Source of the DNA: Neocallimastix sp. 'constans' | Lineage: Eukaryota | Assembly: GCA_050613775.1 (NCBI GenBank) | Contig: JBODTK010000013.1 | Coordinates: 434,001-498,000 of the forward strand | Reading direction: 5' to 3' | DNA: 64,000 nucleotides | Shown here: piece after piece, positions 1,822 through 64,000 of the stretch | How positions within the stretch are numbered: position 1 is the stretch's first letter | Layout of the letters: every line of letters begins with the position of its first letter | The notes under the pieces: model-generated | Databases searched by the model: none | What the model was told of the DNA's origin: nothing | Seen by the model: the letters and a program-made list of their open reading frames with translations, nothing else | Position numbers and translations under genes: made by a program

Positions 1822-4800
1822 GTTATTCTATATAAGCTGGGAATAATATAATAAAAAATTCAATTATATAATAAATAATCAAAATAATGATTTTAATTAA
1901 AACGAAATGACAATAATATATTAAATATGAACAATCAATATTATAATCATTTTCACAACAATAAAAATTTTTTTAGATGCACAGAATATAAATAAATTAA
2001 TATCTTTATATTATTATTTGTAATATAAATTTATACAATACTTTGCAATAAATATTAATAAAAATAATTTATTCTTAATTAAAAAAAAAAAAACAATAGT
2101 AACATGATCACATTAATATAATTGAATAAAAGAAACAAAATGATATGTTTAGTAATAATACAAATTATACTAAATTCTCCCTCAATATTAAAAAAAAAAA
2201 GTATTTTAATATTTTTAAATTTTTATTAAATTTTATAAATACTAACCATTGAAAATCTATTGTTAAAATATAAAAAAATAAATACTTAATAATGACTTTA
2301 ATATAATTTACCCAATCAGAATATCATTATATTTAAATAAAATTATAAAAGAAATAAAATATAACCTTGTCAAAAATATACATTTTTATTATAATAATAA
2401 AAAAAAATAAAGATAAATAAAATTAAATATTAAGTATTATATATAAAATGCTACGCTAAAAATATATCTAATTTTTTCAATGTTTTATTTTGGTGTTCAA
2501 TATCTATATAAGTAGATTAATTATTAATTGTTACTGAAAATAGAGCCAATCAAAAAATTAATTACAATTTATATTATTTAATTTAATAAAACTAAATCTA
2601 ACTAAAGAAGTAAAAAATATAAAATATATAAAAGACAAACTATAGAAAAGAAATAAAAAAATAAATTAAAAAAATAATAAAATATATATACTTTTAATAA
2701 AAAACAAAAAGATAATAACAATCAGAAAATAATCTTTCTTCTAAAGGAATCTCTTTTAATTACTCCGAGAATTTCAATCATATTACCAAATTAATTGTTT
2801 AAAACTTCCAAGATTGGAAAACTAACATTTTAGATCTCCTAATTATAAATAATCTAGAAGAGTACGTTAGTTTACCAAAAATAAAAAAATTGAGAAAGAA
2901 GGATATTAAAGAAGATATAAATAAGTATATTAAAGACAAATTTAGTAATTCTCTTGTTTATGATATTGGGACAACTCAAGCAGATATCAAGAATGACATC
3001 ATGGTTAAATGGATAATTAATAATAGCTTGGGAAAGAAAACAAAAGAAATAATAAAAAGCTATAGTAAGACCACCTTCGAAATGTGGAAATTTCTTCAAG
3101 ATTCCTTCACTTTAGGAGAAGAACATCAAAAAATAATATTACGAAATAAATTAAATAGATTAAAATTTACCACAGACTGTGATATACATATCTTCTTTGC
3201 AACACTCCAAAATATGATCGATGAATTGGAAATTATCGATACAGACATGAATGATAGCTTAAAAGTAGGAATTCTGAATAGAGCTTTACCCGAAAATCTA
3301 AGGTAGATTAATGTTTTCCAATTCAATAATGAATGGATAAAATGTTGCAACTACATAAAAAGAATAATAACAGATATTCTTTTCTCAAATATCAAAGAAA
3401 GAAAACTTCAAGATGAAAACGCAAAAAATATTTTTAATTTACAAATTGAAAAAAAATAAACAAAATAATAAGTATTTAAATATAAGACGAAGAAAAAATG
3501 GAAAATGTTTCCTATGTGGAAATACGGTCACTACAAAAAGGAATGTTATATATATAAAAGATATAAGCTTTTGAAACAAAACAATGAAAATAAATTAATT
3601 AAAATTCAAAGAAAATTGAACAAAAAATATAATAAAGATAAAACTAATAACATGCATTTATACTCGATAAATAATTGCAACAACTATAAAGACAATTACT
3701 TAGAACATTTTTCTTAAGATTATAACTTTAATAATGCAATCGAAATTAATTATTTAGAAACATTAAATAATAAAAATAACAAAAATGGCAATACATATAA
3801 TAATAATTTTATAGTTATGATTTTAGATTCAGGTGCATCAATCAACACCATTAATGACATCAGATTCCTTACTAACATTAAAAAATGTAAATCAAAAATT
3901 CTACTAGCGGATGGAAATGAAGTATTATCTGAGTTTTGTGGCGATTTTGTAGGAATCGTTAACAATAATAAATTTATTTTAAAAGATGTTTATTATTCAA
4001 GATATATTAAGAGAAACTTAATTTCAATCAACCAATTAATATCTCAAAATTATAAAGTATTCAATAATCATGACAATTCCCTACAAGCATTAATTTACCA
4101 TAATAAAGAAAATAGAATTTATAAATGTTTATCTAATGATAAAAATACATATCAAATTTTCACTTCCAAACACCAAATAATTCTAAATTCAACAAAAAGT
4201 AACGAAATCAATTATACACATTCAAATAATCAACAAGTAATAGACCTTTGGCATAGACGCCTAGGTCATTATGATATTTCTAAAATCAAAAATAAGTTAA
4301 GTAATATCAATCTCAAACTAAAATGCCCAGTATGTATTAATTTTAAATTAAAAAATAAGTCATTTAAATCATCTATCAATAAGACTAAACAAATTTTAGA
4401 ATTAATACATTTAGATTTTGTGGGACCTGTCACTCCTTCGATAAATAACAATAAATATTTCCTTATAATTTTAGATGACTACTCTAGATATGGATGGGTC
4501 ATTTTCACCGAAAATAAAAATGATATCTTTAATAAATTTATTATTTGGTATAATAAAATTTATAATTCATTAAATATAAATATCAAAGCAATTCGGTCTG
4601 ATAATGGGAAGGAATTCCAAAATAGTAAATTTCAACTCTTCTGTGAAGAAAATGGAATCAATCACCAGTTTTTAGTACCTTATAACCCTTCTCAAAATGG
4701 AAGGTCCGAAGGATTTAATGGTATACTCATTGCTTTTTCAAAATCACTTCTTAACGACGCTAAACTCAATCATAATTTTTGGGAATTTGCTGTAGATACT

Positions 4801-8605: not shown

Positions 8606-11374
8606 GATTAAGAGTCTCAATCTACTAATTGAGTTTGAATTAAAATAAAGTTAAGTTATATTATAAATTAAATTTTTCTATTTTTACCTTTCAATAAAAC
8701 CAAAGAACTAATAAATTATTATTTTTATTATTTATTGTATTTTATTTATTACCGAATCAAATCCGTAAGAAATAAAGATATTTTTTTAATCAACAATAAA
8801 TAAAATTATAGTTAAATTGTCAAATAATAAAAAATAAAATTAATATCATCAAGATGAAAAATTTATTGTCAACTGATGATATTAATATTAAAATAAAATA
8901 AACATAGTATCATCAAGATGAAAATTAAATAGTCAACTGATGGTATTTAGATAAATTTGAAACTAAAATATTATTAATATAAAAAAATATAAATAAATTA
9001 AAATAATAATAAAAAAATTAATTATACGTATTAAATAAAATTTTGAATAAATCACATTATATAATATATCAAATATATTAAAATGAAATTATAAAATTAA
9101 TCAATGAATAAAAAAATTAAAAAATCGAATCAAATAATAATCACCTTTTATTTAATCAAAATTAATAGTAAATTAAATAATATAAATGCCTTATTTATTA
9201 AAGTTTGGTATTACAACACTAAATTAGATAAAAATAGTAACAAATTAGTGAAATCAAATTTAAATAAAAATTAAAATGAGAATTTTTTTAATATAACAAA
9301 TTAATTCTAATAAATTAATAAAAATTAACAGAATTAAATATTATAATATTTTTTTTAAAACTACAAAATATTTTTATTAATAAAGATATTAAAAAATAGT
9401 TATAATTAATTTAAAACAATAATAAAAATTTAAGATTTCAAAAGTACTCGAAATGGCTGGAAGAAGAAGAAACCAAGAACAAGTTATCAACCTCACCTAA
9501 AAAGATATTACACATAATGGAATAACCTTTAATTATTCCGAAAATTTCAATCAAATTACTGAACTAAATACAGAAAGCTACCCTGGTTGGAGAAGAAAAA
9601 TTCTGTATTTGCTAACAATAAATAAATTAACCAAATATGTTCTTCATCCAATTGTAAAGAAGTTAAGAAAGAGAGAAATAAAAGAAGAATTAACAGATTA
9701 CCCGGAGGATCAATTTGATAGTTCGTTAGTTTATGAAAAGAACACTATAAACATTGATATAACTAACGACATCACGGCCAAATGGATTATCATAAATGGG
9801 CTTGGAGAACAAACACAAAAACTAATAAATGGAAATGAAAAGACCGCTTTTCAAATTTGGAACATCTTCTAAGAATCGTTTACCAAAAGCAAGGAAAGAA
9901 GAAAAATCGAAATTCAAAATAAAATTGAAACAATGAAGTTTGATACCAAGACCGATATAAATATATTCATTGCCAATTTGCAAAATTTAATAGACGAACT
10001 TGAGAAAAATGACAATGACCTTAGTATAAATACAAAAATCGGCATTCTAAATAGAAGCTTACCCGAAGATCTAAAGTGGATAAACGTCTTTCAACATAAG
10101 AGTTGGGAATCATGCTGCTCATACGTTAAGGAAATCATACCTAATATCGTTTTATCTAATTTAAAAGAAAAAAATTCCATTCAGGAAAACAAGAATAATG
10201 TTCTCTTCAATGCTGAAACAAAAAAGAGTAAGAATTATCGAAACAAAAATAGAACTAAAGGTAAAAGGAAAAGCCTCAAAAAGAGTAGTGGAAGATGCAA
10301 CTATTGTGGAAGAAGAGGACATTACTTCTATGAATGTAAATTCAGAAAAAATAATTTATATAAAAATCAAAACAAAAATAAATTCAATAAAAGAATTAAA
10401 ACAAAAAAAAATTTCAAAACGATATTAATTATGTGAACACTAATGATGCCTCTTCAAGTAATTATGACACAATATACGCAGATGCCTTTACTAAAGATTA
10501 TAATACAGAAAATAATATTGAATTAAATTACTGTAACGTTGAAAAAGAATTTTTAAATGAAGATAGTGACAAAAACTTTCTTTCATGTTGGATTTTGGAC
10601 TCCGGTGCTTCAATCAATATCACAAGCAATCTTAATCTTCTAATAGACATAAAAAAATGTAATGAAGAAATTAATCTAGCTAATGGACAAATAATTAAAG
10701 CAGTCCATAAAGGAAAATTTAAAGGGTATGTAAACAACAATGAAATAATACTTAATGAGGTATACTACTCTCCGGCCATCAATAAAAATTTAATATCAAT
10801 TTGCAAATTACTAAAAGAAAATTACAAAATTATTTTTAATAATTCAAATAATAAATCATATACAATCATTTACGATAGTAACGATAAAAGAATAATTAAC
10901 ATCACTGCAACCAAGACTAATACATTTAAAATTTGGTTTTCCAATAATAAAATAAATCTCAATAATAATAACAATCAACATAATAATTTAGAAATAAATT
11001 TCACTACACCAAATGCAGCAAAGAGATTAAATTTATGGCATAGAAGATTATGTCATTTTGATATTAGTCATATTAAAAACAAATTATTAAAACTTAATAC
11101 ACCAGTTAATCAATGCCCAATTTGTATGAATTCAAAACTTAAAAACAAACCATATAAGCAAGCAATAAATAAGTCGAAACATATATTTGAATTACTTCAT
11201 ATGGACTTGGTTGGTCCTCTTCCTGAATCACTTTATGGTAACAAATATCTTTTTACAACCCTCGATGACTATTCACGCTATGGATGGACTTTGTTTTTAA
11301 AATCTAAAAGTGACACCTTTAACTCATTTTACAATTGGTTTTTAAGTATTAAAAATAAGTATAATACTAGAATT
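8606..11374 (+). mobile_element. Ty1/copia element C: PBS, leader, gag-protease and N-terminal integrase; truncated within integrase
   Basis: PBS GATTAAGAGTCTCAATCT at 8606; ATG 9453; CNYCGRRGHYFYEC knuckle; WILDSGAS; WHRRLCH...CPIC; HMDLVGP. Stops at 9498 and 9870 and a frameshift near 10430. Start of the 5' LTR could not be defined. Confidence 0.88.
8839..8947 (+). repeat. Two tandem hairpin repeats in the leader of copia C
   Basis: TATCATCAAGATGAAAA(N)GTCAACTGATG occurs twice. The first copy has a 13-bp perfect stem (ATTAATATCATCA/TGATGATATTAAT). Confidence 0.75.
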
Positions 11375-15420: not shown

Positions 15421-15730
15421 GTCAGCTATTAGACATAAGCTAAGGATGAAATAAAAGATCAGCTATTGAATATAAGCTGAGAATGAAACAAAAAATCAAC
15501 TATATTATATAAGCTGAGAATAAAAGAACATAACATGTCAGCTATGTTATATAAGCTGAGGATAAAAGAACATAACATGTCAGCTATACTATATAAGCTG
15601 AGGATAAAAGAACATAACATGTCAGCTATGTTATATAAGCTGAGAATAAAAGAACATAACATGTCAGCTATGTTATATAAGCTGAGGATAAAAGAACATA
15701 ACATGTCAGCTATGCTATATAAGCTGGGAA
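15421..15730 (+). repeat. Array of 8 palindromic hairpin repeats (37-42 bp period) in the leader of copia D
   Basis: TCAGCT-N10-AGCTGA-type units at 15422, 15459, 15496, 15538, 15580, 15622, 15664 and 15706 (three have one stem mismatch). Confidence 0.95.
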
Positions 15731-20948: not shown

Positions 20949-21020
20949 TTATATTAAAATCTATCTTCATTTTTTTTATCTTTTAAAAAGTTTTTTTTTG
21001 AAGCTAGATTTTTGGGGGAA

Positions 21021-21278
21021 TGTCAAAATAATGATTAATTTAATTAATCTATCTTTAATATAAATAATGACCAATTACTTGTATTAATATTTAAAATAAA
21101 AAGTATAAAAATCATGGAATTATTATTTTATAAAAAAATCATATCTTATACAAAAGAGAATAAAAATAATTTATACTGTTATAAAAAAATATTTTTCTAA
21201 AAACTACTAATCCATATATATTTATTATTGTGTTTATTATAACTTATTTGAGTGTTTCTTAACATAATTTTTTTGACA
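21021..21278 (+). repeat. 3' LTR of copia D
   Basis: Direct repeat of 14912-15169, preceded by the PPT. Confidence 0.96.
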
Positions 21279-23426
21279 GAAATAAATACATTTACTGAAG
21301 GATCCTAAGAATTAAAACATATTTTTTTTTGTAGTTCTAGTTAAAAATATGAGGTCTTGTCTTCTTAAAGTAAATGAGAACTATAAAAAGAACTATAAAG
21401 CAAAATAAGTATTCTACTGATAGATAAATTTAAATTTTAATAAATGATATCTGTTGTATTGTAGAATATAAATTACAATTAGAAGAACCGTATTTTTTTT
21501 CTAATAATCACCAAATGAAAAATATCTAGAAATCAATCCATGAAAAATATTAAATGGGAAAATAGAAGAAGGAGGCAGTTGTAAATAATAATTTTGTTAT
21601 CAAATTTTTTATATACTTATATACATGTTATATTATTTGTCTTAAAATTAGAGAATCCTCCAAAATTTATTTAACGTAAAAATTTTTGTAAATTCCTTTT
21701 TAAAAAAGGAGGAACGTATGAACTCGAAGAAAAATTTGAATGGTTCGCCTTTATTCTATTTCAAATGATTAGTTAAAAATATAATTCTATTATTGTACCA
21801 CATTTCTAATAATAAAATTGAAAATTTTATTTATTAATTTATTAGGAACCTTCATGGCTTCTAATGTTTCTGCTGTCAGTTCGATAAAAAACAATAATTC
21901 ATACATTTTAAAGAATAACTACGCTAGTATTTTTATTTCTAAGAAAGATAATAATATTACTTTATTTAAGATTGCTAGTGACAATAAAGAATTTTTAAAT
22001 AGATCCTATATTGAAACTAATAATAATATTAGCTGACAATATTTTTTCAGCTTAATATTAGATGATTATTGAATATTTTATATTTATATTCATTATTTTT
22101 TTTATTTAAAATTATTTTAATATTAATTTTATTTTATTGATTTTTTATTTTTTTTTTTTTATTTCTGAGAAGTGATTTATTTATTTATATATATTTTACT
22201 GAATTTAATCAGCTCAATTTTTATTTAATTATATGTGTAATTAAATTTTTATAATCATTTTATTTCTTTTTATAGAACTATATTTAATATAATATTTATT
22301 TATAAGATTTTTCAAAAATAAATTTCTTATTTATAAAAAATAAAAATAAGAATACTTATCTTAGTTTTTCTTTCAGGAGATATGTTTAATTGAATTTCTT
22401 TATTAAATAGGTTTTATTATATTTATTTTTATAAAGTATAATATTATTAATTTTAGTATTGAATAATAATTAATTTTTATTTTGAAATTATAGTTATATA
22501 TATTTAAAATAAAATATGAATTAATAATTTTATAAATATTATATGCATATAAATTTTAATTTTTAATTATATTATAAAATAAATATAATATTATTTTATT
22601 TATTTTTACTTCACTTTATAGTTGTTTTATTAAGATTATACAAATATATATTATTGGTTATATATACTTGATATTATATATATTTTAAAAAATGTATTAA
22701 GAAACTCCTTAATATCATAAAAGTACAAAACTTTAATTTTATATTTTTAACCAAATGTTTGTAATTTAATTTATTTTATGAATATATAATTTTATATAAT
22801 ATATTAAATAAAAAATTTTCGTCATAATTATTTTATTATTGAAAAATAAAATATAAGTAATCAAATATTTTTATATAATAAAATAACTTCTTTTAAATTA
22901 TAAATTATTTTTATACATATTTCATTTATATTTAATATTTGCATTTTTATTTGTATTTTCTTTATGTTTGTTATTGATTATATAATATTATATATTAAAA
23001 AGAAAATAAAAATTAAATAAAAAAATTAAAAATATTATGTTTAAAATTTTAATTATTATTTTATATAAGTTCTAATTGTATTAAATATATATATTTAAGT
23101 AATAATGAAGTGTAAATTTATAGATATAAAAAAAATAAAGTTAAAGTGAAAATAAAAAAAGATACTTCATAATATAAAATTAAATAATACTATAACTACA
23201 TATATTTGAATTTTTTAATTTTGAAGATTATGATTTATAAAGATAATCTTAGGATTTCCATTGAAGAAAAGGATTTCTTCAAAATCTCTATGAATGTAAT
23301 TTATTTAATACTTAAAGAGAAAATTATTTAATATAATTTCCTTTTTATAGCTTTATGAAAATTTCGATAAACAGATTTTATTTTATTTTATTTTTTAATT
23401 ATATAATACTAAACCTTTTCCATTAC

Positions 23427-36976: not shown

Positions 36977-37018
<42 letters not shown>

Positions 37019-46680: not shown

Positions 46681-47553
46681 ATTTACTTAATTCAAATCGT
46701 ACTTTTTATAAAATTTGTTAGAAATAAAATGAAATTGATTTATTAATTAATAAGCGATAATAAATAATAAAAGAATTAATATATTGTTTTATGAATTATA
46801 CTTATTTAATTTGAAAAGTTTACTAATAAATGACTATTAACTTTTTTAAATTTTAATCCTTATTGATCCTTTTGACAAAATAAAAAGTGTTATCATTTCA
46901 AGAACTATCAAATTTAATATTTTTATCTTTTGTATAATATTTCTGATAGTTTAAGAGTTAAGAATCTCAATTCAACAGTTATGCATCACATATAAGCTAT
47001 GTTGAAATATCTATTATGAATATAAATTTTTTTTTAAAAAAAATATCTATTTTCTTTATTTCTTTAACTCCCGTTTCGTAATAACTATATTTAGAAATAA
47101 TACATAAATAAATACGTAACAGAGCCTGTCCTATTGTGAAGAAATAAATTGAAGAAATTTGTATCTTCATACAATATAAATATAGTTTTCATATTGTAAT
47201 TTAATATTTATTAAAATAAAAATAATATATAATTGTAATTCAACATAAACTAGTTGAAAATAGTATTTTTTAACAAACTAATAAATTAATAATAAAATAA
47301 TAGTCAATTAATTAAAAAATAAGACTGAAAATAATAATTAATGATCATAAAATCTATATCTCAAAATAATGTTCAGATAACAAAAAAAAATATTAAATAA
47401 AATATTTGTCTGATAATATTATTTAAGTCTGCGAGTAAAGATTATTTAAAAAATAATAATTAACTTAAAAAATTAAAATTAAATTGAAAAGATACAAATA
47501 CAGGTAGAGAAGATAAAATTATTTGAAAAAAAAAGTTGAACATTACTTCTTCT

Positions 47554-48987: not shown

Positions 48988-49274
48988 TGTTAATAAACAC
49001 ACAATTAAGAGACACACAATATTAAGATAATATTATAATTATATTTAAGTAAAGATGTTTTATATTCTTTATTATATATTAATATTTATTATTATAAATA
49101 TATATAATTAAGTATGTATGATCGTATATATATATTAAGGTTTTTTATTGTTAAAGAGATAAAAAAAAATTAGGATTATTATTTAAGCACGTTTTATAGT
49201 ATTTCGAGTATTTTGTATTTGTAAAATATTGGATAATCATAGATTAAATTTTATATTAAAATATATTTTTAACA
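48988..49274 (-). repeat. 3' LTR of copia E
   Basis: TGTTAA...TTAACA ends; preceded on the minus strand by PPT AGGGTGAA. Confidence 0.96.
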
Positions 49275-49429: not shown

Positions 49430-52400
49430 TTATTCAATTTTAGTAAGAAGGGAAATTCTAAATTTATCCATTAAAGTATTGTTTAAGTATTTCGTGAATC
49501 CGTCGGCTAAATTTTCTTTAGTGTTTATGTAATTCAATTTGATTAATCCTTTATTAACAAGATCTCTAATATGATGATACCGAATATCAATGTGTTTCGA
49601 CTTGGGATTAATTGACTGATTCTCACTATTATATATTGTTGCTTTATTGTCGACGAAAATTTTTACATTATTAATTTTTATTCCAAGTTCGTTTAATAAA
49701 TTCTTATACCATAATGAATGCTTTGCGCATTCGCTTAAACTATAATACTCAGCTTCGGCCGTTGAGGGAGAAACGCAATGTTGCAATTTCGAGAACCAAC
49801 TGGTTGGCGTTCTTCCCATCATCATCAGGAATCCTGAAGTAGATTTTCTTGTGATTGAGTCTCTAGCGAAATCTGCGTCTACATAAACCTTAAGGTTAAT
49901 ACCTTTTTCAATTTTTATACCATAGTTTTTTGTGTACATTAAGTATCTGAATATTTTAAGAACATTATTCCAATCCTCTAAGTTAGGGTTATTGGATTTT
50001 CTTGCTGCTCTGCTCACAGCAAATAGGATATCAGGTCGGGTACAAATAGCAAGATACAATAGGTTCCCAATGGCACTTCGGTATTTCGTTTCATTAAATT
50101 TTATGCATTTCAATTTATTGTTTTCCACTGGTATTAAATTTTTCGATGGTGTAAGTTTATTAATTTCATATTTGAATAATATATCGTTAATATATCTTAT
50201 TTGATGTAAAATATAGCCATTTCTGATCTTATTAAATTTAATTCCTATAACGAATTCTACATTACCTATATCTTTAATATTAAATTTTCTTTTTATTGAA
50301 TCTTTTACAATTTTGATTTCATGATCTGTTCCCGCAATTAATATATCATCTACGTATACCGACAAAATGCATATTGTTTTATTATTCCTATCTGTCTTAA
50401 TATAAACGCAAGGTTCACTCTTAGCTCTTCTAAAATTTAATTTGAGAAGCTCATTATTCAATTTTTCGTTCCATTCTTTTCCAGCTTGCTTTAAGCCATA
50501 AAGGGCTTTTTTAAGCTTCCAAAAACATTTATTGAATGAATGATGACCTTCGGGAGATTTCATATATATATCATCTTTTAAATCTGCATTAAGGTATGCA
50601 GAGTTAATGTCTATTTGTTCGATATTAAAATTATGCTGAACAGCTATTGCTGTGATAATCCTTATTGTATCTTGTTTTAAAGTTGGAGCAAACGTTTCCT
50701 TGAAATCAATTCCATACTGCTGCGTATAACCTTTCGCAACTAATCTTGCTTTTCTTTTTATTATATTACCGTTTGAGTCTCTTTTATATTTAAATACCCA
50801 ACGTGATGATATAACGTTAGATCCTTCTGGAACTGAATTTACAATCTGAAAAACATTTAGCTTTTCCATATTTTTTAATTCTTCATTTACGGCTTCCATC
50901 CATTGCTCTTTATCTTTAAGGTTAAATATATCTTTAAAGTTATATGGTTCTCTGAATATATTGTTTTCTTCATTTAATTTTGATATATTCTTTTCACTAT
51001 ATTTTATTCTTTTGCTTGATGCTTTTGCTTCATAATTAATGTTTCTTTTATTTGTATTATTGTTTGTTGTATTGTCTTGATAGTGGGATATTTCAATTTT
51101 ATTGTTATTAGTATTGTTTAATTTATTTACGTAATTAATTGTACTTTCCATATTAGATTCTTCAGTTGTATTTTTATTAGGAATATTATCATTATTTTTA
51201 TTAAGATTATTGGTAATATTATTGTCATTAAATTCATTATTTCTATAGTTTCTTGTATTAGTGTTGCAAATATTATTGTTGTTTAATTTATTATTATTAT
51301 TGATTGATGAATCATTGATATAGATATTACTTTTATTATTAGTGTTATTTTTATTGTTATTATTGAAAGTATTATTACTAGTATTGTTAATGTTGTTTTC
51401 ATTATTGATGTTGATATTATTTGAAGTAATGTTGTCATTTCCTGAATTATTATTATCTTCTGGATTATCATTTTTATTTTGTTTTTGTTTTTTATAAGTT
51501 TTATGTTTATTTTTATTTCTTAAAATATTGCTATTATATTGTGAATCGTTAATATTATTATAGTTATTTTGATAGTTGTGATTGTTGTTGTTGTATTTTT
51601 GATAATTATAATTGTTATAATTATTGTTTGAAAAATTTTTGACTGAGTAATCATTCACCCTGAATTCGTTATTGGAATTATAGTTTAGTAAGACTGAATT
51701 TCCAGGATCGTTTTCAAAGAATTGGACAGTTCGAGATAGCACGATTTTATTGTTGGTTAAATCAAGGATTTTATAAGATGATGGGTTATTGCAATATCCT
51801 AAGAAAATTCCAGGGTGTGAATTATTATCAAATTTGGATCGTAGTTCTTTTGGTATAAAGAAAAATACTCTACATCCAAAAACTCTAAATATGATGTAAT
51901 CAACAGGTTTATTATATAGAATCTCAAATGGTACTTTATTGTTTATACCCTGATGGGGTAAACGATTGTGAATAAAATTTACTGTATCAACAGCAAATTC
52001 CCAAAAATTATGAGAAAGTTTTGATTCATTTAGTAGAGCTTTTGCGGAAGATATAAGTATGCCGTTGAATCGTTCAGCTTTCCCGTTTTGGGCTGGATTA
52101 TATGGTATAGTGTATTGATGTATTATACCATTATTTTGACAGAATATTTTGAAATTATTATTAAAAAATTCCCTTCCATTATCTGATCGAATATTTTTGA
52201 TTTTAATGCTGAATGTGTTTAAAACTTCTTTGTACCAAATAATGAATTTATTAAATGTTTCATTTTTATGTTGTAGGAATAAGACCCAGCCATATCTAGA
52301 AAAGTCATCCAGGATTGTGAGGAAGTATATATTCTTATTTAAGGATGGCAATACGGGGCCCACTAAATCAAGATGTATAAGTTCGAAAATGTGTTTTGTT

Positions 52401-54139
52401 TTATTAATTGATCTTTTGAAAGGTTTGTTCCTTAATTTTGAATTGGAACATATTTGACATTTGTGATTTGTATTTGTATTAGTATTTTTTAAATTATCTT
52501 TTATTTTAGTAATGTCGAAATGACCCAGGCGTCTATGCCAAAGATCAAAATCTTGTTTATTGTTGATATGTGTTGAATTAATTTCATTTAAATTTTCGAA
52601 ATTATTGTTCTTATGAAAAATGGATGGTGCTTTTGATAAATATATTTTAAATATATTTTTATTGTCTGCTGCTGATTGATATATTCTATTACCTTTGTCG
52701 TCATAGATGATTGCGATTTGTGAGTTTTTATAGTTATTGAAAACAATTTTATAATTTTGTGTTATTAATTGATTAATTGATATTAAATTTTTCTTGATAA
52801 ATTTAGAATAATGAACGTTCTTTAAAATAAATTTATGATTGTTTATATATGCATTGAAATCACCAATGTAGTTAGCATATGTTTCCTTTCCATTGGCAAG
52901 AGATATTTTTATTTTTTCTTTTCTGATGTTTGATAATATATTAATGTTATTTGTTACATTAATTGAGGCACCGGAATCCAGAATCCATTGTGTAATATTA
53001 TTATTGTTGCTTCTTATATCAATTTTTGTTGGCTTGTTAATCTCTAAACTGTTTAATTCAAAACAGTTGTCTGAGTTATAATCTCTTGAGAAGTCTTCTT
53101 GGTAGTTTTCATTATAATCCTTTTTATCGTTTAATAGATATGCATGACCTTCTCTTGGTTTTTCTTTGTTGAATTTTTTTGTATTACCTTTTCTTTTATG
53201 TTGTTTGTTGTTTCTTTTGTTTTTATTGAATTTGTTTTTTAAGCAGTCTTTTCGGTAGTGTCCGAACTTTCCACAAAGGTAGCATTTTCCATTTTTTCTT
53301 TTCTTGTATTTTATTTTCTTAGGTTTAGAGATTTTTCGTCCATTTTATAAACTAAATATATTCTTCGGATTTTGTTCGATTAAAGCTGTTTCCCTGATAT
53401 TGGAGAAAACAATATCTGGTATTATCCTTTTGACATAGTCGCAGCATTTTGTCCAATTATTATTGTATTGGAAAACATTAATGAATCTAATGTTTTCAGG
53501 GAGAGCTCGATTTAAAATACCGACCTTAACATTGTCAATAATATCGGAGTCTATTCTTTCCAATTCATCCAGGAGATTTTGTAAGACAGCTAAGAAAATA
53601 TGGACATCATCTTCTAAATTATATTTCAATTTATTGATTTTGTCTTTCAGGACCATTTTTCTTTGTTCAGGTCCTATGGTAAAAGACTTGTTAAGTAGTT
53701 CCCATAATTGGAAGGCCGTTTTGCTTTGACTTTCCAATATTTTCTTGGTGTTCTCACCAAGATTATTTGTTATGATCCATTTTACTAATATGTCATTTTT
53801 AATATCTTTTTCGCTTGTTCCGATTTCGTACACAAGGGAATTATCGAATTTATCAATCGTATATTTTTCAATGCTTTCTGTTATATCTCTCCTTCTTATC
53901 TTTTTCACTTTTTCATGACTTATGTAGTCATCGAGGTTATTAATACAAAGGAGATAAAGGATATTTGTTTTCCAGTTAACAAAGTTATCTGTTGTCAATT
54001 CCGTAATATGGTTAAAGTTTTCACTGTAGTTAAAAGTGAACCCCTTTTGTGTGGGTTCATATTCACTGATGTTTATTATTTGGTCTTAGGTAGAATTGAT
54101 ACTATTTCTAGAATTACTTCTTAAGTTATTTCTGCTCAT
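49430..54139 (-). pseudogene. gag-pol of copia E: single 1570-codon frame with two in-frame TAA stops
   Basis: ATG 54139; TAA at 54088-54086 and 53347-53345. I translated 53344-52364 by hand and it is open (CYLCGKFGHYRKDC, WILDSGAS, WHRRLGH) and continuous with the 977-aa IN-RT-RH ORF. Confidence 0.93.
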
Positions 54140-54932
54140 GTTAGTTTAATTCCGAAAAAAAAAAATGTTATTATGAATTATAATTGCTTATTAATTATTT
54201 TATTACTTTCTTTAAATAATTTTGAAGAGTAAAAAAAAATATAATTTGAGTTTATTTATATTTCTAAAAAGTACTATTTGAATTCATAAAATATCAATTT
54301 TGCTTTAAAAAAAAATATTGGTTATTATTTTTAGAAACATGATTTATTTCAATATTTTGTTTGGTTGATGATTTATTAAATTAATATATATAATTGGAAC
54401 GTTAAGAAAATTTTTAATTATATATGAAGTGATTAATCAGATGACATCTGTATATTTTGTTTATATTAAACATGATCAATATATTATCAATAAATTAATA
54501 TTAATAAAATTGTATTGTCGTTATTATTTTATTAATATTTTCTTTGTTATAGTATTGATCATTTGTTGATTTTAATTATGAAAAAATAGTTATTTGATTG
54601 TCATGTTTATATTTTATTATTATTGTTAGTTTATATTAAAAAATCTAACTATTGGTGAGTTGTTTATAAAAATATTTTAAATTTTTATTATGATATTTGT
54701 TTATATTAAAAGTGATTTATTTATTTTGTGATTTGACCAATTTTATATTATTATTTATTTATTGTATAACCTTTAATTTGAATTATGTTTATTTATATTT
54801 TAACTTATTGTATTTTGTAGAGTTAGTATTATTGACGTTTTATTTATTATTATTTTTATATGAATGTCTGACATTATAATTTTAAAATTAGTTTATAGAA
54901 AAGAAATTGACTTTATTATTATATTTTTTTAG

Positions 54933-55310
54933 TATTCAGCTTATATACTTTATAGCTGACCAAATTTTATTTAATTTATTATAAATTACATGGCTGACCT
55001 TTTAAATAATTTATTGATATTCAGCTCATGTCTTTGATAGCTGACTTTTTATTCAGCTTATGAATTAAATAGCTGACTTAATAATTGTGCTCAGCCTATG
55101 TATTTGATGGCTGACTTTTTATTTTTATTCAGCTTATAAATTAAATAGCTGACTTTATTAAGTTATAGTACTCAGCTTATACTTTTGATAGCTGACATCT
55201 TATCTTCTTATTCAGCTTATAGCTTAAATAGCTGACTCTATTGATTATAGTATTCAGCTTATATTTTTGATAGCTGACTCTTTTTTTTTATCTTTTATTC
55301 AGCTTATAAG
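54933..55310 (-). repeat. Array of 8 full + 2 half palindromic hairpin repeats with variable spacers in the leader of copia E
   Basis: TCAGCT-N12-AGCTGAC (+ strand) at 54936, 55021, 55053, 55091 (TCAGCC/GGCTGA), 55129, 55172, 55212 and 55254; half sites at ~54992 and 55299. Confidence 0.93.
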
Positions 55311-55617
55311 TTTTTGATTTTACTGTCAATTTCTATTTAAATTTTTAAAACTATAATTTAATTTTATTTTTGATTAATCGGCTCCTTATATTATCTTATT
55401 ATTTTAATAACTCGTATGAAATTATTTTTTAATGTTTTTGTTTAGAATTGGATATTTTGTTGAATTATTATTATTTTATATATTATTATTAATTTTATTT
55501 TATTTATTATTATTTAAAATAAATGAAAAAAAAAATAAATTAGTATGAATTTATATTTATCTGTCTTAAATAAGTATATATATTACTGTAGCTATTAATA
55601 CTTAACTTTCATTCTAT

Positions 55618-55647
55618 CTCAATCGGTTGAGATTGAGACTCTTAATC
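55618..55647 (-). promoter_or_regulatory. Primer-binding site complementary to the 5' half of tRNA-Lys(CUU)
   Basis: + strand reads CTCAATCGGTTGAGATTGAGACTCTTAATC, equivalent to tRNA nt ~11-40; 27 nt identical to the D PBS. Confidence 0.8.
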
Positions 55648-55934
55648 TGTTAATAAACACACAATTAAGAGACACACAATATTAAGATAATATTATAATT
55701 ATGTTTAAGTAAAGATGTTTTATATTCTTTATTATATATTAATACTTATTATTATAAATATATATAATTAAGTATGTATGATCGTATATATATATTAAGG
55801 TTTTTTATTGTTAAAGAGATAAAAAATAATTAGGATTATTATTTAAGCACGTTTTATAGTATTTCGAGTATTTTGTATTTGTAAAATATTGGATAATCAT
55901 AGATTAAATTTTATATTAAAATATATTTTTAACA
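55648..55934 (-). repeat. 5' LTR of copia E
   Basis: Direct repeat of 48988-49274, adjacent to the PBS. Confidence 0.96.
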
Positions 55935-56105
55935 AAAATAATATAAAGTTTAAAAAGTTTTGATCTACGAATATAATTTTCTATATAAGGTTAATTAAAA
56001 TTTTAATTAATTAAATTATAGTTGATCTAAACTTTTCCACGTGTAAAATATTCTTTATTTACTGTTCATAGTAAAAATAATAATAAAATAAAAAAAAATA
56101 AAATA

Positions 56106-56155: not shown

Positions 56156-56849
56156 AAGTGATATTTTTTTTAATTCTATTTTGTTTTTTATTATTGTAAT
56201 TATAATATTATTTCGATTTTATTTTTTGAAGAAAAATTATATTATTTTTTTTTTTATTTATAGTATTATAATTTTTATTTTATTTATATTATTTTCTTTT
56301 TATATACTTAAATAAAAAAATAGCATTTTTTTTTATTATTTTTATTTGCTAATTATAAAACTTTTTATTTTTATTTTAATTTTTATTTCTTTTGATTTAT
56401 TTTTAATTTTAATTTTATTTTAATTTTTATTTTTATTTTAATTTTAATTTTAATTTTATTTTTATTTTTACTTATTTTGGATTATTCTTAATTTTATTTT
56501 TATTTTATTTCTTTATTTTTTACTTTATTCGGTTTATTTTTATTTTTATTTCCATAGATTTATTATTATTATTATTTATTTGGATTTATTTAATTATTTT
56601 TTATTTCTCTTTGTCTATTCTTATTCATATTTTTACTCTATTTTATTTCTTTTGGTTTATTATTTTCAATATCCTTATTATCAATATCTTTATTGTTACT
56701 TTTATTTCATTTTTATTATTTTTATTATAAATTTTATTATTTCTATTTTTTCCTTTTTTTTATTCTACATTAAAAATAACAGGTCCATAGATATGACGTT
56801 TACTATTAGTAAAATATAATACTTTCAATATTACGGAATTTTTTTTTAA

Positions 56850-57240
56850 AGGAAATAAAAGATTAAATAAAAATAAAAATAAACCAAAGTTAATAAAAAT
56901 AAATATAAAAAATAAAAATAAGAAATAAAAATAAGAAATAAAAATAAGAAATAAAAATAAGAAATAAAAATAAGAAATAAAAATAAGAAATAAAAATAAG
57001 AAATAAAAATAAGAAATAAAAATTAACCAAAGGAAATAAAAATAAAAATAGGAAATAAAAATAAAAATATAAATTAACCAAAGGAAATAAAAATAAAAAT
57101 AAATCAAAGAAAATAAAAATAAAAATAAAAATAAAAATAAAAAATAAAAATAAAAATAAAATAAATAATAGAAATAATAATAATAATAAAAATAATAAAA
57201 ATAAAAATAATAATAATAAAAATAATAATAATAAAAATAA

Positions 57241-57271
<31 letters not shown>

Positions 57272-57941
57272 AAAAATAAATCAAAGGAAATAAAAATAAA
57301 ACAAACGAAATAAAATTAAAAAATAATAATAATAGAAATAAAAATAAGAAATAATAATAATATAAATAAAAATAAAAAAATAATAATAGAAATAATAATA
57401 ATAATAATAAAAATAATAATAGAAATAAAATAGAAAAAAATAATAAAAATAAAAAAAAATAATAAAAACAATAAAAATAATAAAAATAAAAATAATAATA
57501 AAAATAAAATAATAATAAAAATAAAAATAATTATAAAAATAAAAATAATAATAAAAATAAAAATAAAAATAAAAATAAAAATAAATCAAAGGAAATAAAA
57601 ATAAATCAAAGGAAATAAAAATAAATCAAAGGAAATAAAAATAAAAATAAAAAAAAATAATAGAAATAAAAATAAAAAAAATAAAAAAGTTTTATAATTA
57701 GAAATAAAAATAATAATAATAATAGAAATAAAAATAAAAATAATAATAGAAATAAAAATAAAAAAATAAAAATAATAATAATAATAGAAATAAAAATAAA
57801 AAAAATAAAAATAAAAATAAAAATAAAAATAAAAATAAACGAAATAATAATAAAAAATAATAGAAATAAAAATAAAAATAAAAATAAAAAGTTTTATAAT
57901 CAGAAATAAAAATAAAAAAATAATAGAAATAAAATAAAAAA

Positions 57942-57982
<41 letters not shown>

Positions 57983-58464
57983 TAAAAATAAACAAAATGA
58001 TATAAACCAAAGGAAATAAAAATAAAAATAAAAATAGACCAAAAGAAATATAAATAAAATAAAAATAAAAGTAAAAATAAAATAGACCAAAAGAAATATA
58101 AATAAAATTAAAATAAAAGTTAAAATAAAAATATACCAAAGAAAATAAAAAAAGGAAATAAAAGGAAATAAAATAAAAATAAAGAAGTAAAAATAAAAAA
58201 GAAATAAAAATAAAGTAAAAAAAAAAAAAAAAGAAATAAAAATTAAAATAATAATAGAAATAAAAATAAAAATAAATCAAAGGAAATAAAAATAAAAATA
58301 AAACAAAAGATATAAAAATAAATATAAATATAAAAATATACCAAAAGAAATATAAATAAAAGAAATAAAAATATAAATAAATAAAAAATGAAATAAAAAT
58401 AAAGTAAAAAAAAAAAAATAAAAAGTTTTATAATTAGAAATAAAAATAAAAAAAATAATAATAA

Positions 58465-58515
<51 letters not shown>

Positions 58516-61032
58516 TTAAAATAAAAATAAAGTTTGAAATAAAAAGTTTTATAATTAAAAATAAAACATAAAAATAAAAAGCTTTATAATTAGAAATAAA
58601 AATAAAAATAAAAAGTTTTATAATTAGAAATAAAAATAAAAAAAATAAAAAAAAAAATAAACCAAATGAAATAAAAATAATATAAGTAATAAAAATAAAT
58701 CAAAGAAAGTATAAATAAAAAAAATATAAAATAAAAATAAAAATAAAAATAAGAAATAAAAATAATAATAAAAATAAAAATAAAAATAAAAATAAACCAA
58801 AGGAAATATTAATAAAATAAAAATAAAAAAAATAAAAAAAAAATAAACCAAATGAAATAAAAATAATATAAGTAATAAAAATAAATCAAAGGAAGTATAA
58901 ATAAAAAAAATATAAAATAAAAATAAAAATAAAAATAAGAAATAAGAAATAAAAATAATAATAAATATAAAAATAAAAATAAGAAATAAAAATAAGAAAT
59001 AAGAAATAAAAATAATAATAAATATAAAAATAAAAATAAACCAAAGGAAATATAAATAAAATAAATATAAAATAAAAATAAAAAAAAATAAACCAAATGA
59101 AATAAATATAATATAAGTAATAAAAATAAATCAAAGGAAGTATAAATAAAAAAAAAGAAATAAAAATAAAGTAAAAAAAAAAAAAAAAAAAAAAAAAGAA
59201 ATAAAAATTAAAATAATAATAGAAATAAATATAAAAAAAATAATAATAATAAAAATAATAATAATAATAATAAAAATTAAAATAAAAATAAAACAAAGAA
59301 AATAAAAATAAAGTTTGAAATAAAAAGTTTTATAATTAAAAATAAAATAAAAATAATATCAATGTATTAAACCCAATAAAAATAAAAATAAAAAGCTTTA
59401 TTACTAGAAATAAAAATAAAAATAAAAAGTTTTATAATTAGAAATAAAAATAAAAATAAAAAGTTTTAAAATTAGAAATAAAAATTAAAATAAAAATAAA
59501 AGTATTAGAAATAAAAATAATAATAAAAATAAAAATTTTATAATTAAAAATAAAAATAAAAATAAAAATAAACCAAACGAAATGAAAATAAAAATAAAGC
59601 AAAAGAAATAAAAATGAAAATAAACCAAAGAAAATAAATCAAAGGAAATAAAAAAAATTAAAGGAAATAAAAATAAAAATAAGAAATGAAATAAAATAAA
59701 AATAAACCAAAGGAAATAAAAAAAATCAAAGGAAATAAAAATAAAAAAAATAATAGAAATAAAATTAAAAAAAATAAAAATAAAAATAACCAAAGGAAAT
59801 AAAATAAAAATAAAAATAAAAATAATAAAAATAAAAAATAATAAAAATAAAAATAAAAATAAAAATAAAAATAAAAATAAAAATAAAAAAAAATAATAAA
59901 AAAAAAAAAAATAAAATAAAATAAAAATAAAATAATAATAATAATAATAAATATTAAAATAAAAATAAACCAAAGGAAATAAATCAAAGAAATTAAACCA
60001 AAGGAAATAAAAATAATAATAAACCAAAGATAATAAACCAAAGGAAATAAAAATAAAATTAAAATTAATAATAAAAATCCAAAGGAAATAAAAATAAATA
60101 TATGAATTAAAAGTAAAAATAAGAAATAAAAATAAGTAATAAAAATAAATAAAAAGAAGTATAAATAAAAAAAGAAATAAAAATATAATAATAATAGAAA
60201 TAAAAATAGAAATAAAAATAAAAAAAAATAATAGAAATAAAAATAAAAATAAAAATAAAAATAAAAATAAATCAAAGGAAATAAAAATAAGAAATAAAAA
60301 TAAAAATAAAAATAAAAATATAAAAATAAATCAAAGAAAATAAAAATAAAAATAAAAAGTTTTATAATCAGAAATAAAAAAAATAATAGAAATAAAAATA
60401 AAAAAATAATAGAAATAAAAATAAAAAAAATAATAGAAATAAAAATAAAAAAATAATAGAAATAAAAATAAAAAAAATAATAATAGAAATAAAAATAAAA
60501 AAAATAATAGAAATAAAAATAAAAAAATAATAATAGAAATAAAAATAAAAAAAAAAAATAATAAAAATAAAAATAAAACAAACAAAATGAAAATAAAAAT
60601 AAAAATAAAAAGTTTTATAATCAGAAATAAAAAAAATAATATAAATAAAAATAAAAAAAATAATAGAAATAAAAATAAAAAAATAATAATAGAAATAAAA
60701 ATAAAAAAAATAATAGAAATAAAAATAATAATAATAATAGAAATAAAAATAAAAAAATAATTATAGAAATAAAAATAAAAAAAATAATAATAATAATAAA
60801 AATAAAAATAATAATAAAAATAAAAATAAACCAAAGGAAATAAAAATAATATAAGTAATAAAAATAAATCAAAGGAAATAAAAATAAGAAATAAAAATAA
60901 GAAATAAAAATAAGAAATAAAAATAAAAATAAAAATAAAAATAAGAAATAAAAAAAAGAAATAAAAATAAAAATAAAAATAAAAATAAAAAAAAATTAAA
61001 AAAATAAAAATAAAAATAATAATAATAATAAT

Positions 61033-61095
<63 letters not shown>

Positions 61096-61461
61096 TAAAA
61101 ATAAAACAAAGGAAATAAAAATAAAACAAAGGAAATAAAAATAAAACAAAGGAAATAAAAATAAATCAAAGGAAATAAAAATAAAAATTAAAATAAAAAT
61201 AAATAATAAAATAAAAATAAGTTTAAAAATTAAAATAAAAATAAACCAAAGTAAATATAAATAAATTAAAGGAAATAAAAATAAAAATAAAAATAAAAAT
61301 AAAAATAAAATAAAAATAAAATAAACCAAATGAAATAACAATAATATAATAAAAATAAATCAAAGGAAATATAAATAAAAAAAGAAATAAAAATAAAGTA
61401 AAAAAAAAAAAAGAAATAAAAATAAAAATAATAATAGAAATAAACGAAATAATAATAAAAA

Positions 61462-61492
<31 letters not shown>

Positions 61493-61646
61493 AAAAATAA
61501 AATAAACCAAATGAAATAACAATAATATAAGTAATAAAAATAAATCAAAGGAAATATAAATAAAAAAAGAAATAAAAATAAAGTAAAAAAAAAAAAAGAA
61601 ATAAAAATAAAAATAATAATAGAAATAAACGAAATAATAATAAAAA

Positions 61647-61677
<31 letters not shown>

Positions 61678-61819
61678 AAAAATAAAATAAACCAAATGAA
61701 ATAACAATAATATAAGTAATAAAAATAAATCAAAGGAAATATAAATAAAAAAAGAAATAAAAATAAAGTAAAAAAAAAAAAAGAAATAAAAATAAAAATA
61801 ATAATAGAAATAAACGAAA

Positions 61820-61866
<47 letters not shown>

Positions 61867-63270
61867 TAAACCAAATAATAATAAAAATAATAATAAAAAT
61901 AAAAATAATAATAAAAATAATAAAAATAAAAATAAAAATAAAAATAAAATAAAAATAAAACAAAGGAAATAAAAATAAACCAAAGGAAATAAAAATAAAA
62001 CAAAGGAAATAAAAATAAAACAAAGGAAATAAAAATAAAACAAAGGAAATAAAAATAAACCAAAGGAAATAAAAATAAAAATAAAACAAAAGATATAAAA
62101 ATAAAATAAAAATAAAAATATACCAAAAGAAATATAAATAAAAGAAATAAAAATATAAATAAATAAAAAATGAAATAAAAATAAAGTAAAAAAAAAAAAA
62201 AAATAAAAAAAAAAAATAATAATAGAAATAAAAATAAAAAAAATAATAATAATAAAAATAATATTAATAATAATAAAAATTAAAATAAAAATAAAACAAA
62301 GAAAATAAAAATAAAGTTTGAAATAAAAAGTTTTATAATTAAAAATAAAATAAAAATATTACCAATATATTAATGATAATAAAAATAAAAAGCTTTATAA
62401 TTAGAAATAACAAAAATAACAATAAAAATAAAAAGTTTTATAATTAGAAATAAAAATAAAAATAAAAAGTTTTATAATTAGAAATAAAAATAAAAATAAA
62501 AATAGACCAAAAGAAATATAAATAAAATAAAAATAAAATAAAAATAAAAAAAATAAAAAAAAATAAACCAAATGAAATAAATATAATATAAGTAATAAAA
62601 ATAAATCAAAGGAAGTATAAATAAAAAAAGAAATAAAATAAAATAAAATAAAAAAAGAAAAAAAAATAAAAATTAAAATAATAATAGAAATAAAAATAAA
62701 AAAAAATAATAATAATAAAAATAATAATAAAAATTAAAATAAAAATAAAACAAAGAAAATAAAAATTAAGTTTGAAATAAAAAGTTTTATAATTAAAAAT
62801 AAAATAAAAATAATACCAATGTATTAAAGCCAATAAAAATAAAAAATAATAATAAAAATAAAAAGTTTTATAATTAAAAATAAAAATAAATCAAAAGACA
62901 TAAAAATAAAAATGAATCAAAGGAAATAAAAATAAAATTAAAAATAATTATAAAAATAATAATTATGATAATAATGATAATAATAATAATAAAAATTAAA
63001 ATAAAAATAAAAATAATAAAAATAAAAATAAAAGGAAATAAAAAAAAATAAAAAAAAAAATTAAAAAAAAAATAAAAATAAAAACAAAAACAAAAATGTT
63101 TATAATTAAATTTAAAATAAACCCAAAGGAAAAAAAAATAAAAAGTTTTATAATTAAATAAAAAAAAAAATGTAATAAAAAAAAATAAAAGAAATAAAAT
63201 TTAAAATAAAATATAATAATAAAAATTTGAAAAAAAAATAATAAAAAAATAATAAAAAAATAAAAAAAAA
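56850..63270. repeat. A-rich compound satellite (AAAAAT, AAT, AAA(C/T)CAAAGGAAAT, AAAGTTTTATAATTAGAAAT) with higher-order units
   Basis: 6.4 kb built from a few motifs; 13-bp, 20-bp and ~185-bp periodicities visible. Confidence 0.93.
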
Positions 63271-64000
63271 ATAAATTACTATATATTCATTATGAATTAT
63301 CATGGATTAGATTATTTATTATTTATTCTTTTAACCTTTTTAATTATTTATTAGGCTACATAATAATTTTTTTTATTAATTATATTTGATAAAATTTAAT
63401 TATTTCATATTATATTAGTTATGTCCAAATGATTATTCATAATAAAATATTATTAAATAAAGTTTAATGAAATCAAAAAAAAAATTTTAAATTAAAATTA
63501 AAATTTAAATTTAATTTAGATCATAAAACTTTAAAATTACATGTGTAAACTTTAATTAATTTAAAAAAATGGATTGTTCAACTAAGGTGGATGATCCATC
63601 AAAAAAATAATAAATATGAATAATTGTAACTATTATTATAGGCAATAAATAATTGAAAAGAAATAATAAATAATTAATAATAAAATAATTTAAAAGAAAT
63701 AACATATAATAATTGTAAATTATATATATTTTTTAATAAATATTAATTTAATTTATAAAAATTAAATAAAAATAACATCAAATATAAAAATTTAAATAGA
63801 ATATTAACTAATAAAAAATAACAATAAAATTAACTATATAATTTTCATTATATCAAATAATAATAATAATAATAATTAATTTCTATATAATAAATATATC
63901 ATATCTAATAGATAAAAAAATCAATTATAAAAATTAAAATAATAAATTAAAAAAAGAAAAAAAAATCAATAATAAAATAATTTTAAAAAATATTAAAAAA

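What the first reader, a model, noticed from the sequence alone, without database searches (positions are those of the whole stretch)
54933..55310. Repeat-spacer array of palindromic hairpins in a copia leader, with a compensatory base pair
Seen: 8 complete units, GTCAGCTAT-N8-ATAAGCTGA on the element strand, separated by spacers of variable length and sequence (about 7-20 nt, one longer). Loops alternate between two types. One unit (55091-55114) has both stem positions changed together (TCAGCC/GGCTGA). Inference: stems are conserved while loops and spacers drift, which suggests selection on a repeated RNA/ssDNA stem-loop (Gag-binding or packaging array, dimerisation, translational control, or processing into small RNAs) or on a dyad DNA site. 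Plant Sirevirus LTR palindrome arrays are a known analogue, but I know of no description of this motif in a fungal copia leader.
Basis: partly seen in the sequence, partly recalled or inferred. Interest (0 to 1): 0.85.

Follow-up and report, generated by a model that had tools for sequence, protein, structure and literature searches.

The report
Bulged-hairpin array in fungal retrotransposon leaders
Related copia retrotransposons of gut fungi carry, between their primer site and first gene, repeats of two short complementary sequences whose outer bases change in matching pairs, which likely form a repeated RNA helix that the element's Gag protein would bind when packaging its RNA.

Summary
The array is real: 8 complete units plus 2 orphan arms, 340-710 nt after the 5' LTR of a recently inserted Ty1/copia element of an anaerobic gut fungus. 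The unit has N7, not N8. Spacers are drifted copies of a two-unit tandem repeat, not unique. The conserved object is an 8-bp helix with a bulged A (NNN-A-GCUGA pairing with UCAGC-N'N'N'), not a fixed-loop hairpin. The same motif sits after the same primer site in two more elements in the window and in an independent metagenome contig (L124, 13 units), plus one solo copy. Across these the 5-bp core never swaps, while all three outer pairs change on both sides (0 of 500 shuffles as high; lineage permutation 1 of 120, 1 of 24 without the hand-picked case). Arms are identical between two families whose silent sites are saturated. Best reading: a selected, multivalent RNA helix, likely a Gag-binding packaging signal; function untested, and dimer calculations gave no specific support. 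All four elements also have a primer site for half of tRNA-Lys(CUU), a Hemivirus-like mode with a different tRNA.

The parts
54936..55307 (-). Array in element E5: 9 'B' arms (NNN-A-GCTGA) alternating with 9 'A' arms (G-TCAGC-NNN); 8 complete A-to-B units plus two orphan arms; two-unit (about 80 nt) period
55091..55114 (-).
   Evidence: no difference listed at these places in the main contig of run X12
54989..55030 (-). Second C/G-matched pair in the other register: CATG-A-GCTGA with TCAGC-CATG, bulged A, 23-nt loop
   Evidence: predicted pairing probability 0.85-0.99
55648..55934 (-). 5' LTR of E5, 287 nt, TG...CA, preceded by target-site copy ATTTT
55618..55647 (-). Primer-binding site: first 14 nt complementary to tRNA-Lys(CUU) anticodon arm (nt 27-40 by my numbering), then a partial match to the D arm
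   Evidence: weak truncated Rfam tRNA match, 9.7 bits, E 8.8
54140..55647 (-). 1508-nt leader, 17.5% GC, 11 upstream AUGs with short ORFs (1-24 codons)
49430..54139 (-). gag-pol in one frame (gag, CCHC knuckle, protease, integrase, RT), two in-frame stops in this copy
48988..49274 (-). 3' LTR of E5 (3 mismatches in 287 nt to the 5' LTR), preceded by a purine tract, followed by ATTTT
15422..15727 (+). Sister array in element E4 (different family): same arms, 8 units of 22 nt, 42-nt period in the last five; 250-560 nt after the same primer site (15170)
8843..8946 (+). Two divergent units in the leader of decayed element E3 (primer site 8606): longer outer stem, bulged A kept, core C-G replaced by an A-A mismatch
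   Evidence: these units were part of the model, so the match is by construction
22023..22061 (-). Solo unit outside any recognisable element: 8-bp outer stem, bulged A, 5-bp core, 10-nt loop
   Evidence: such a unit appeared once in 200 shuffled windows
1829..1840 (+). Last arm of the array left in truncated element E2 (E4 family), same terminal variant as E4

Best explanation
The array is a tandemly amplified pair of complementary arms in the leader of a fungal copia element that is predicted to fold into repeated 8-bp RNA helices with a bulged A, which likely serve as a multivalent binding site for the element's own Gag, marking the full-length RNA for packaging. Shown: the repeat, its place between primer site and gag in 3 elements and after the primer site in a fourth, the constant 5-bp core, double-sided changes in the 3 outer pairs, the retained bulge. 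Inferred: pairing happens in RNA; the constant core and bulge are read by a protein while the outer pairs only need to pair; loop sequence, loop length and even which end of the helix is closed do not matter; copy number (2 to 13) changes by slippage or template switching; the protein is Gag (one CCHC knuckle in a basic region) and the job is packaging, possibly with arm swapping between two genomic RNAs.
For: Bulged helix on 19 aligned units: 95.4% of cells paired, 3 of 8 pairs changed on both sides, covariation 0.265 vs 0.063 shuffled, 0 of 500 shuffles as high, slid controls at most 0.073; the unbulged register fails. At lineage level, 15 of 15 outer pairs match, 1 of 120 permutations (1 of 24 without E3; 1 of 6 without E3 and the solo unit). 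L124 was found by its primer site alone and has all three outer pairs changed. E4 and E5 share identical consensus arms while four-fold sites in RT-RNase H are 34 of 77 identical and only 2 of 22 G/C sites are kept. In E5 both C-variant arms lie next to a G-variant arm, and the two G changes are at different positions that can each pair with the C. In E5, E4 and L124 nearly every B arm is predicted to be paired to some A arm; array folding z = -4.0 (E5) and -8.1 (L124). The bulged-A reading is on the element strand in 4 of 4 elements. RNA contigs from two studies cover the array. A 5' UTR hairpin that converts to an intermolecular duplex is documented for Ty1 PAL1-PAL2 (PMC6844567, passages read).
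Against: No binding or probing data. Only five arm types, two of them noticed because they looked palindromic or matched the core; pairs-changed and pair-type counts alone are not significant (66 and 55 of 500). RNAalifold predicts no consensus structure for single units. Partner choice is promiscuous, so no single fold dominates. Unpaired changes exist: 7 of 152 cells, including the core A-A mismatch in both E3 units and G-to-A changes in E4 and L124 edge units. Among family variants in reads, 4 of 15 fall in helix positions that make up 144 of 372 sites, no significant depletion (P = 0.25); 2 of the 4 break a pair. Homodimer formation is no more favourable than for shuffles or other leader pieces. 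RNA contigs over the array have depth 3-8 against 22-76 at the gag start and the gag contigs end near 54180-54240, a weak hint that much gag RNA might not include the array. A solo copy lies outside any recognisable element.
Confidence: 0.45

Rival explanations
1. The same bulged RNA helix is selected, but it is read by a host RNA-binding protein and serves export of the unspliced RNA or translation of gag past a 0.85-1.5 kb leader full of upstream AUGs (IRES, shunt or repression), not packaging.
For: All structural evidence applies equally. Leaders hold 8-16 upstream AUGs, so plain scanning to gag is implausible. A solo copy on the same strand as, and about 1.4 kb past the stop of, a long host gene could be a host use of the motif.
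Against: The array lies far from the gag AUG (about 800 nt in E5, 620 in E4) and close to the primer site, where retroelement packaging and dimer signals usually lie (established knowledge, recalled). No splice joint with support was seen in the stretch laid.
Confidence: 0.22
2. The repeat acts as double-stranded DNA: alternating GCTGA half-sites bind a host transcription factor or insulator protein, like the Drosophila copia leader enhancer or the Sirevirus LTR motifs, perhaps driving an internal gag transcript.
For: The core never changes on both sides. Within E5 and E4 the A-to-B length is fixed (24 and 22 nt). RNA contigs are deeper at the gag start and end upstream of it (weak). Sirevirus motifs also keep a core while surrounding symmetric bases vary (PMC2829016 section 9).
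Against: Half-site spacing differs between families in both orientations (R2 loops 6, 8-23, 10, 11, 15-20 nt; A-to-B inner segment 5, 7, 14-15 nt). The outer bases covary with a one-base offset that a symmetric DNA site would not need.
Confidence: 0.2
3. A neutral minisatellite: a chance inverted repeat was amplified by slippage and kept symmetric by template switching during reverse transcription.
For: Clear tandem amplification with different periods (two-unit in E5, 42 nt in E4, 37-38 nt in L124); template switching can create matched changes without selection; no stem conservation signal within the family.
Against: Arms rich in G/C stay identical between E4 and E5 while silent G/C sites are lost (2 of 22 kept); symmetry correction would erase the bulge, which is kept in every lineage; position after the primer site is conserved in 4 of 4 elements.
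Confidence: 0.07
4. The paired array is a source of small RNAs (Dicer substrate) that regulate the element, as proposed for Sirevirus LTR palindromes.
For: Long nested folds are possible; Sirevirus palindromes are siRNA hotspots (PMC4728375, abstract only).
Against: Helices are 5-8 bp and interrupted, short for Dicer (inference); a constant core and bulge are not needed for that role; no small-RNA data were available.
Confidence: 0.06

Closest known systems
Ty1 PAL1-PAL2 / SL1 (S. cerevisiae) and retroviral dimer-linkage and psi hairpins
   Same: Complementary arms in the 5' UTR of a Ty1/copia RNA that can pair within one RNA or between two (PMC6844567, passages).
   Different: Ty1 has one small hairpin near the 5' end, upstream of the primer site; here 2-13 copies lie downstream of it, with a bulged A, a constant core and free loops. 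Dimerisation is not shown here.
Sirevirus repeated palindromic motifs (RM boxes)
   Same: Clusters of 8 or more dyad motifs in a copia element, constant core with variable symmetric flanks (PMC2829016 section 9).
   Different: RMs lie in the LTR and upstream of env, have a CGG-CCG core and at most a few intervening bases, and occur in plants; here the motif is in the internal leader, imperfect by a fixed bulge, with loops of 5-23 nt.
Drosophila copia untranslated-leader enhancer and gypsy Su(Hw) array
   Same: Repeated cis-elements in the leader between 5' LTR and gag, in AT-rich spacers (copia ULR protein binding: PMC2443393 passages and a reference title in PMC2829016; gypsy array recalled).
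   Different: Those are read as DNA; no covarying bulged helix is known to me for them (recalled, not searched out).
Hemivirus-type priming (Ty5, Drosophila copia, 1731, Osser)
   Same: Primer site starts right after the LTR and matches the anticodon arm up to nt 40 of a tRNA (PMC1181622, passages).
   Different: The matching tRNA is Lys(CUU), not initiator Met.
MS2/PP7 operator hairpins (recalled)
   Same: Short RNA helix with a bulged A recognised by a capsid protein.
   Different: Those need a specific small loop; here loops vary in length and sequence. No homology is implied.

Membership tests
Ty1/copia LTR retrotransposon (host element) | Two LTRs, TG...CA, 5-bp target-site duplication | tested here: met
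   287-nt LTRs, 3 mismatches, ATTTT on both sides
Ty1/copia LTR retrotransposon (host element) | gag, protease, integrase, then RT | tested here: met
   PF14223, PF22936, PF13976, PF00665, PF25597, PF07727 in that order
Hemivirus-type priming | Primer site complementary to a tRNA anticodon arm ending at nt 40 | tested here: met
   14 nt after the LTR match tRNA-Lys(CTT) genes called by ARAGORN in L134-L136, in 4 of 4 elements; the fungal tRNA gene itself was not available; priming not tested
Hemivirus-type priming | Primer is initiator tRNA-Met, as in Ty5 | tested here: not met
   Match is to Lys(CTT)
Hemivirus (genus) | RT phylogeny with the type members | not tested
   No reference RT sequences were fetched
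Sirevirus RM boxes | Located in the LTR or upstream of env | tested here: not met
   Located in the internal leader; no arm match in the LTRs
Sirevirus RM boxes | CGG-CCG core | tested here: not met
   Core is GCTGA/TCAGC; RM table read
Ty1 PAL-type dimerisation site | Complementary arms in the 5' UTR forming a hairpin stem | tested here: met
   (prediction and covariation only)
Ty1 PAL-type dimerisation site | Favours or is required for RNA dimers | tested here: inconclusive
   Predicted homodimer gain -4.7 to -7.8 kcal/mol, not better than shuffles (15-20 of 20 as favourable) or control pieces; arm swapping is near-isoenergetic, so the test is weak
Psi / packaging signal | Binds Gag and is needed for RNA encapsidation | not testable with these tools
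   Needs binding and packaging assays
Leader DNA enhancer or insulator (copia ULR, gypsy) | Dyad with constant half-site spacing | tested here: not met
   Spacing differs across families in both registers
Leader DNA enhancer or insulator (copia ULR, gypsy) | Binds a host DNA-binding protein | not testable with these tools
   No footprint data
CRISPR-like repeat-spacer array | Unique spacers of near-constant length | tested here: not met
   Spacers 8-23 nt and homologous with a two-unit period; near-identical in L124
Any Rfam 15 family | Match at gathering score | tested here: not met
   0 matches for window and L124; 0 at E up to 5 for 54000-56000

The most novel reading that the evidence does not exclude
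A clade of copia elements in anaerobic gut fungi uses a loop-independent, circularly permutable bulged-A RNA helix, amplified to 2-13 copies, as a multivalent Gag operator (a natural MS2-like array) whose interchangeable arms also let two genomic RNAs zip together, in elements that prime from half of tRNA-Lys(CUU). Copy number would tune packaging and so competition among families.
Probability: 0.25. Interest if true: 0.78.

Novelty: new variant of a known kind. Interest (0 to 1): 0.57.

Why it matters
Packaging signals of LTR retrotransposons are mapped in detail for very few elements, mostly yeast Ty1 and Ty3. A short, repeated motif defined by covariation gives a direct test (Gag binding, compensatory mutants) in an early-diverging fungal lineage whose LTR elements a 2026 review lists as largely uncharacterised (PMC13728883, passage). 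A helix that works closed from either end and in tandem would be an unusual design for a retroelement cis-signal, and the half-tRNA-Lys primer site widens the known range of anticodon-arm priming.

Tried and rejected
No whole genome was held, so the family could not be collected. Primer-site pattern: 0 in viral contigs, 8 in metagenome contigs of which only L124 has an LTR-like context and an array, 5 in prokaryote genomes, none with a strong model match. Gag and gag-pol searches of viral contigs found no relative. RNAalifold gave no consensus. The covariance model found no strong new site in the window beyond the training regions; the best others were 34447-34491 (E 0.019) and 986-1020 (E 0.042), and the first lacks the core. 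The first dimer calculation had an indexing error in its ensemble column and was redone. A spliced leader was considered: joints listed have only 20-29 letters on the short side and also occur in DNA runs, so they were rejected; reads were laid only on 54000-55480, so a joint to the LTR end could not be seen. CRISPR-like and box C/D readings were dropped (spacers homologous; CUGA without a conserved box C). Four look-ups of earlier scan findings returned nothing. The survey of LTR elements in these fungi (Navaratna et al. 2024) is not held; only its title was seen, so it may already mention the motif or the primer site.

Full report
Setting. The window is very AT-rich and holds several Ty1/copia elements. 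Relatives of the gag protein that carry a name come from Orpinomyces (Orpsp1_1) and Neocallimastix lanati, 5 named of 23 hits, so the host is very likely an anaerobic gut fungus. No whole genome was held. The element with the finding (E5) is on the minus strand: 5' LTR 55934-55648, 3' LTR 49274-48988, 3 mismatches in 287 nt, 5-bp target duplication; gag-pol in one frame from 54139 to 49430 with two in-frame stops in this copy and copia domain order. The leader is 1508 nt with 11 upstream AUGs. The array lies 340-710 nt after the LTR.

Observation. There are 8 complete units G-TCAGCYAT-N7-ATRRGCTGA and two orphan arms. The pattern TCAGCT-N10-13-AGCTGA has 12 matches in the window and 0 in 100 shuffles. 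Inner segments and spacers both alternate, so the array grew as a two-unit tandem repeat; the spacers are not unique.

Relatives. Five of the 12 matches belong to a second array at 15422-15727 in element E4, which has other LTRs and the same primer site. E4 and E5 are 65% identical in gag and 79% in RT-RNase H, but four-fold sites are saturated (34 of 77 identical; 2 of 22 G/C sites kept), while the consensus arms are identical. A third, decayed element (E3) has two divergent units at the same distance from the primer site. A fourth (E2) is cut by an LTR and keeps only the last arm. A solo unit lies at 22023-22061 with no primer site or gag match nearby. A scan of metagenome contigs for the primer site alone gave 8 loci; one, L124, has an LTR-like TG...CA stretch, the primer site and 13 units of about 37 nt. 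Its contig ends just after the array, so its gag was not seen.

What is conserved. Aligning 19 units (8 from E5, 5 of 7 from E4, 3 of 13 from L124, 2 from E3, the solo unit; near-identical units left out) shows a 5' arm NNN-A-GCUGA and a 3' arm (G)UCAGC-N'N'N'. With the A bulged, 95.4% of 152 cells pair, all three outer pairs change on both sides, and the covariation score (0.265) exceeds all 500 shuffles and all slid controls; the two counts that are more robust to relatedness are not significant (66 and 55 of 500). Without the bulge the model fails. Counting by lineage, outer triplets are ATA/TAT, ATG/CAT, TGC/GCA, TCA/TGA and TTA/TAA; only 1 of 120 permutations matches as well, 1 of 24 without E3, 1 of 6 without E3 and the solo unit. 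L124 is the unbiased case. In E5 both C-variant arms have a G-variant neighbour, one in each register. The core never changes on both sides: three pairs are invariant and two are only broken, notably an A-A mismatch in both E3 units.

Folding. The arrays fold better than shuffles (z -4.0 and -8.1), and in E5, E4 and L124 nearly every B arm is predicted to pair with an A arm, but the partner may be upstream, downstream or distant. The short side of the repeat is A-to-B in E5 and E4 but B-to-A in L124, and E3 and the solo unit exist only as B-to-A. So the helix, not a loop, is the unit. RNAalifold finds no stable consensus for isolated units. Predicted homodimer gain is no better than for shuffles or control pieces.

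Reads. 20 of 24 listed runs hold the element or part of it. Four were laid on 54000-55480. In DNA run X12 one contig of depth 728 spans 54952-55256 with 4 differences; the three listed at full depth are in spacers and none is listed at the variant pairs, so these pairs appear to be family-wide. Of 15 variant places in the array, 4 are in helix positions (144 of 372 sites; P = 0.25): two give G-U pairs on the element strand, two break a pair. RNA contigs of two studies cover most of the array at depth 3-8, against 22-76 at the gag start; contigs cannot show level, strand or start, and DNA carry-over is not excluded.

Mechanism. A constant core with a fixed bulge and freely covarying outer pairs is what protein recognition of an RNA helix would leave (inference). 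Its place between primer site and gag, on the element strand, in tandem copies, points to a Gag-binding packaging signal (0.45). Host-protein export or translation control is next (0.22), a DNA enhancer or insulator array (0.2) is weakened by unequal spacing and offset covariation, and neutral origin (0.07) or small-RNA source (0.06) are unlikely. Taken together, a selected base-paired structure has about 0.7.

Primer site. All four elements share 14 nt directly after the LTR that are complementary to the anticodon arm of tRNA-Lys(CTT) genes (three viral-contig copies called by ARAGORN), ending at nt 40 by my numbering, where Hemivirus priming starts (PMC1181622, passages). The host's own tRNA gene was not available.

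Comparison and novelty. No Rfam family matches. Closest by likely function: Ty1 PAL1-PAL2 (PMC6844567, passages). Closest by layout: Sirevirus RM boxes (PMC2829016, section 9 and passages; PMC4728375, abstract) and the Drosophila copia leader (PMC2443393, passages); membership tests for these fail on location, core or spacing. Ten literature searches found no description of this motif or of a half-tRNA-Lys primer site; the library lacks most subscription papers, including the 2024 survey of LTR elements in these fungi, and no supplements were read. Verdict: real, conserved and apparently undescribed; a new variant of a known kind of retroelement cis-signal, with function untested.

Noticed in passing
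window 55618-55647 (-), 15170-15199 (+), 8606-8635 (+); L124 1030-1059 (-): Primer-binding site for the 5' half of tRNA-Lys(CUU) rather than initiator Met, shared by four elements; Hemivirus-like priming with a different tRNA.
   Followed up: partly
window 55600-55611 (-), 15206-15218 (+), about 8648-8660 (+); L124 about 1010-1021 (-): AAAGTTAAGT(AT) is kept 35-45 nt after the LTR end in 4 of 4 elements. It resembles the U1-binding 5' splice consensus (recalled) with the +1 G changed, so it might be a splice donor or a U1 site suppressing 5' LTR polyadenylation.
   Followed up: no
window 22023-22061 (-): Solo bulged-helix unit with an 8-bp outer stem, about 1.4 kb past the stop of the 3246-aa gene; element remnant or host use.
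   Followed up: partly
window 11347-11547: Partial LTR of the E5 family (87% identical) at the point where element E3's integrase stops.
   Followed up: no
window 1583-1820 and about 2263-2500: Two copies of another LTR-like sequence interrupt element E2's leader, removing most of its array.
   Followed up: no
window 14912-21278: Element E4 has LTRs differing at 1 of about 258 positions but no matching target-site duplication (CTAGT vs GAAAT).
   Followed up: no
window 23427-42120 (-): A 3246-aa ORF and upstream exons with no Pfam match, rich in Cys-containing repeats; resembles the cellulosome scaffoldins of anaerobic fungi (recalled, not tested).
   Followed up: no
window 44800-46700 and 56300-64000: Long low-complexity AT tracts of opposite strand bias flank element E5 (GC 5-13%).
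   Followed up: no
L124 1060-1260 (-): The LTR is preceded by a purine tract and followed by a primer site, suggesting tandem elements sharing one LTR; no gag-pol match was found in the contig.
   Followed up: partly
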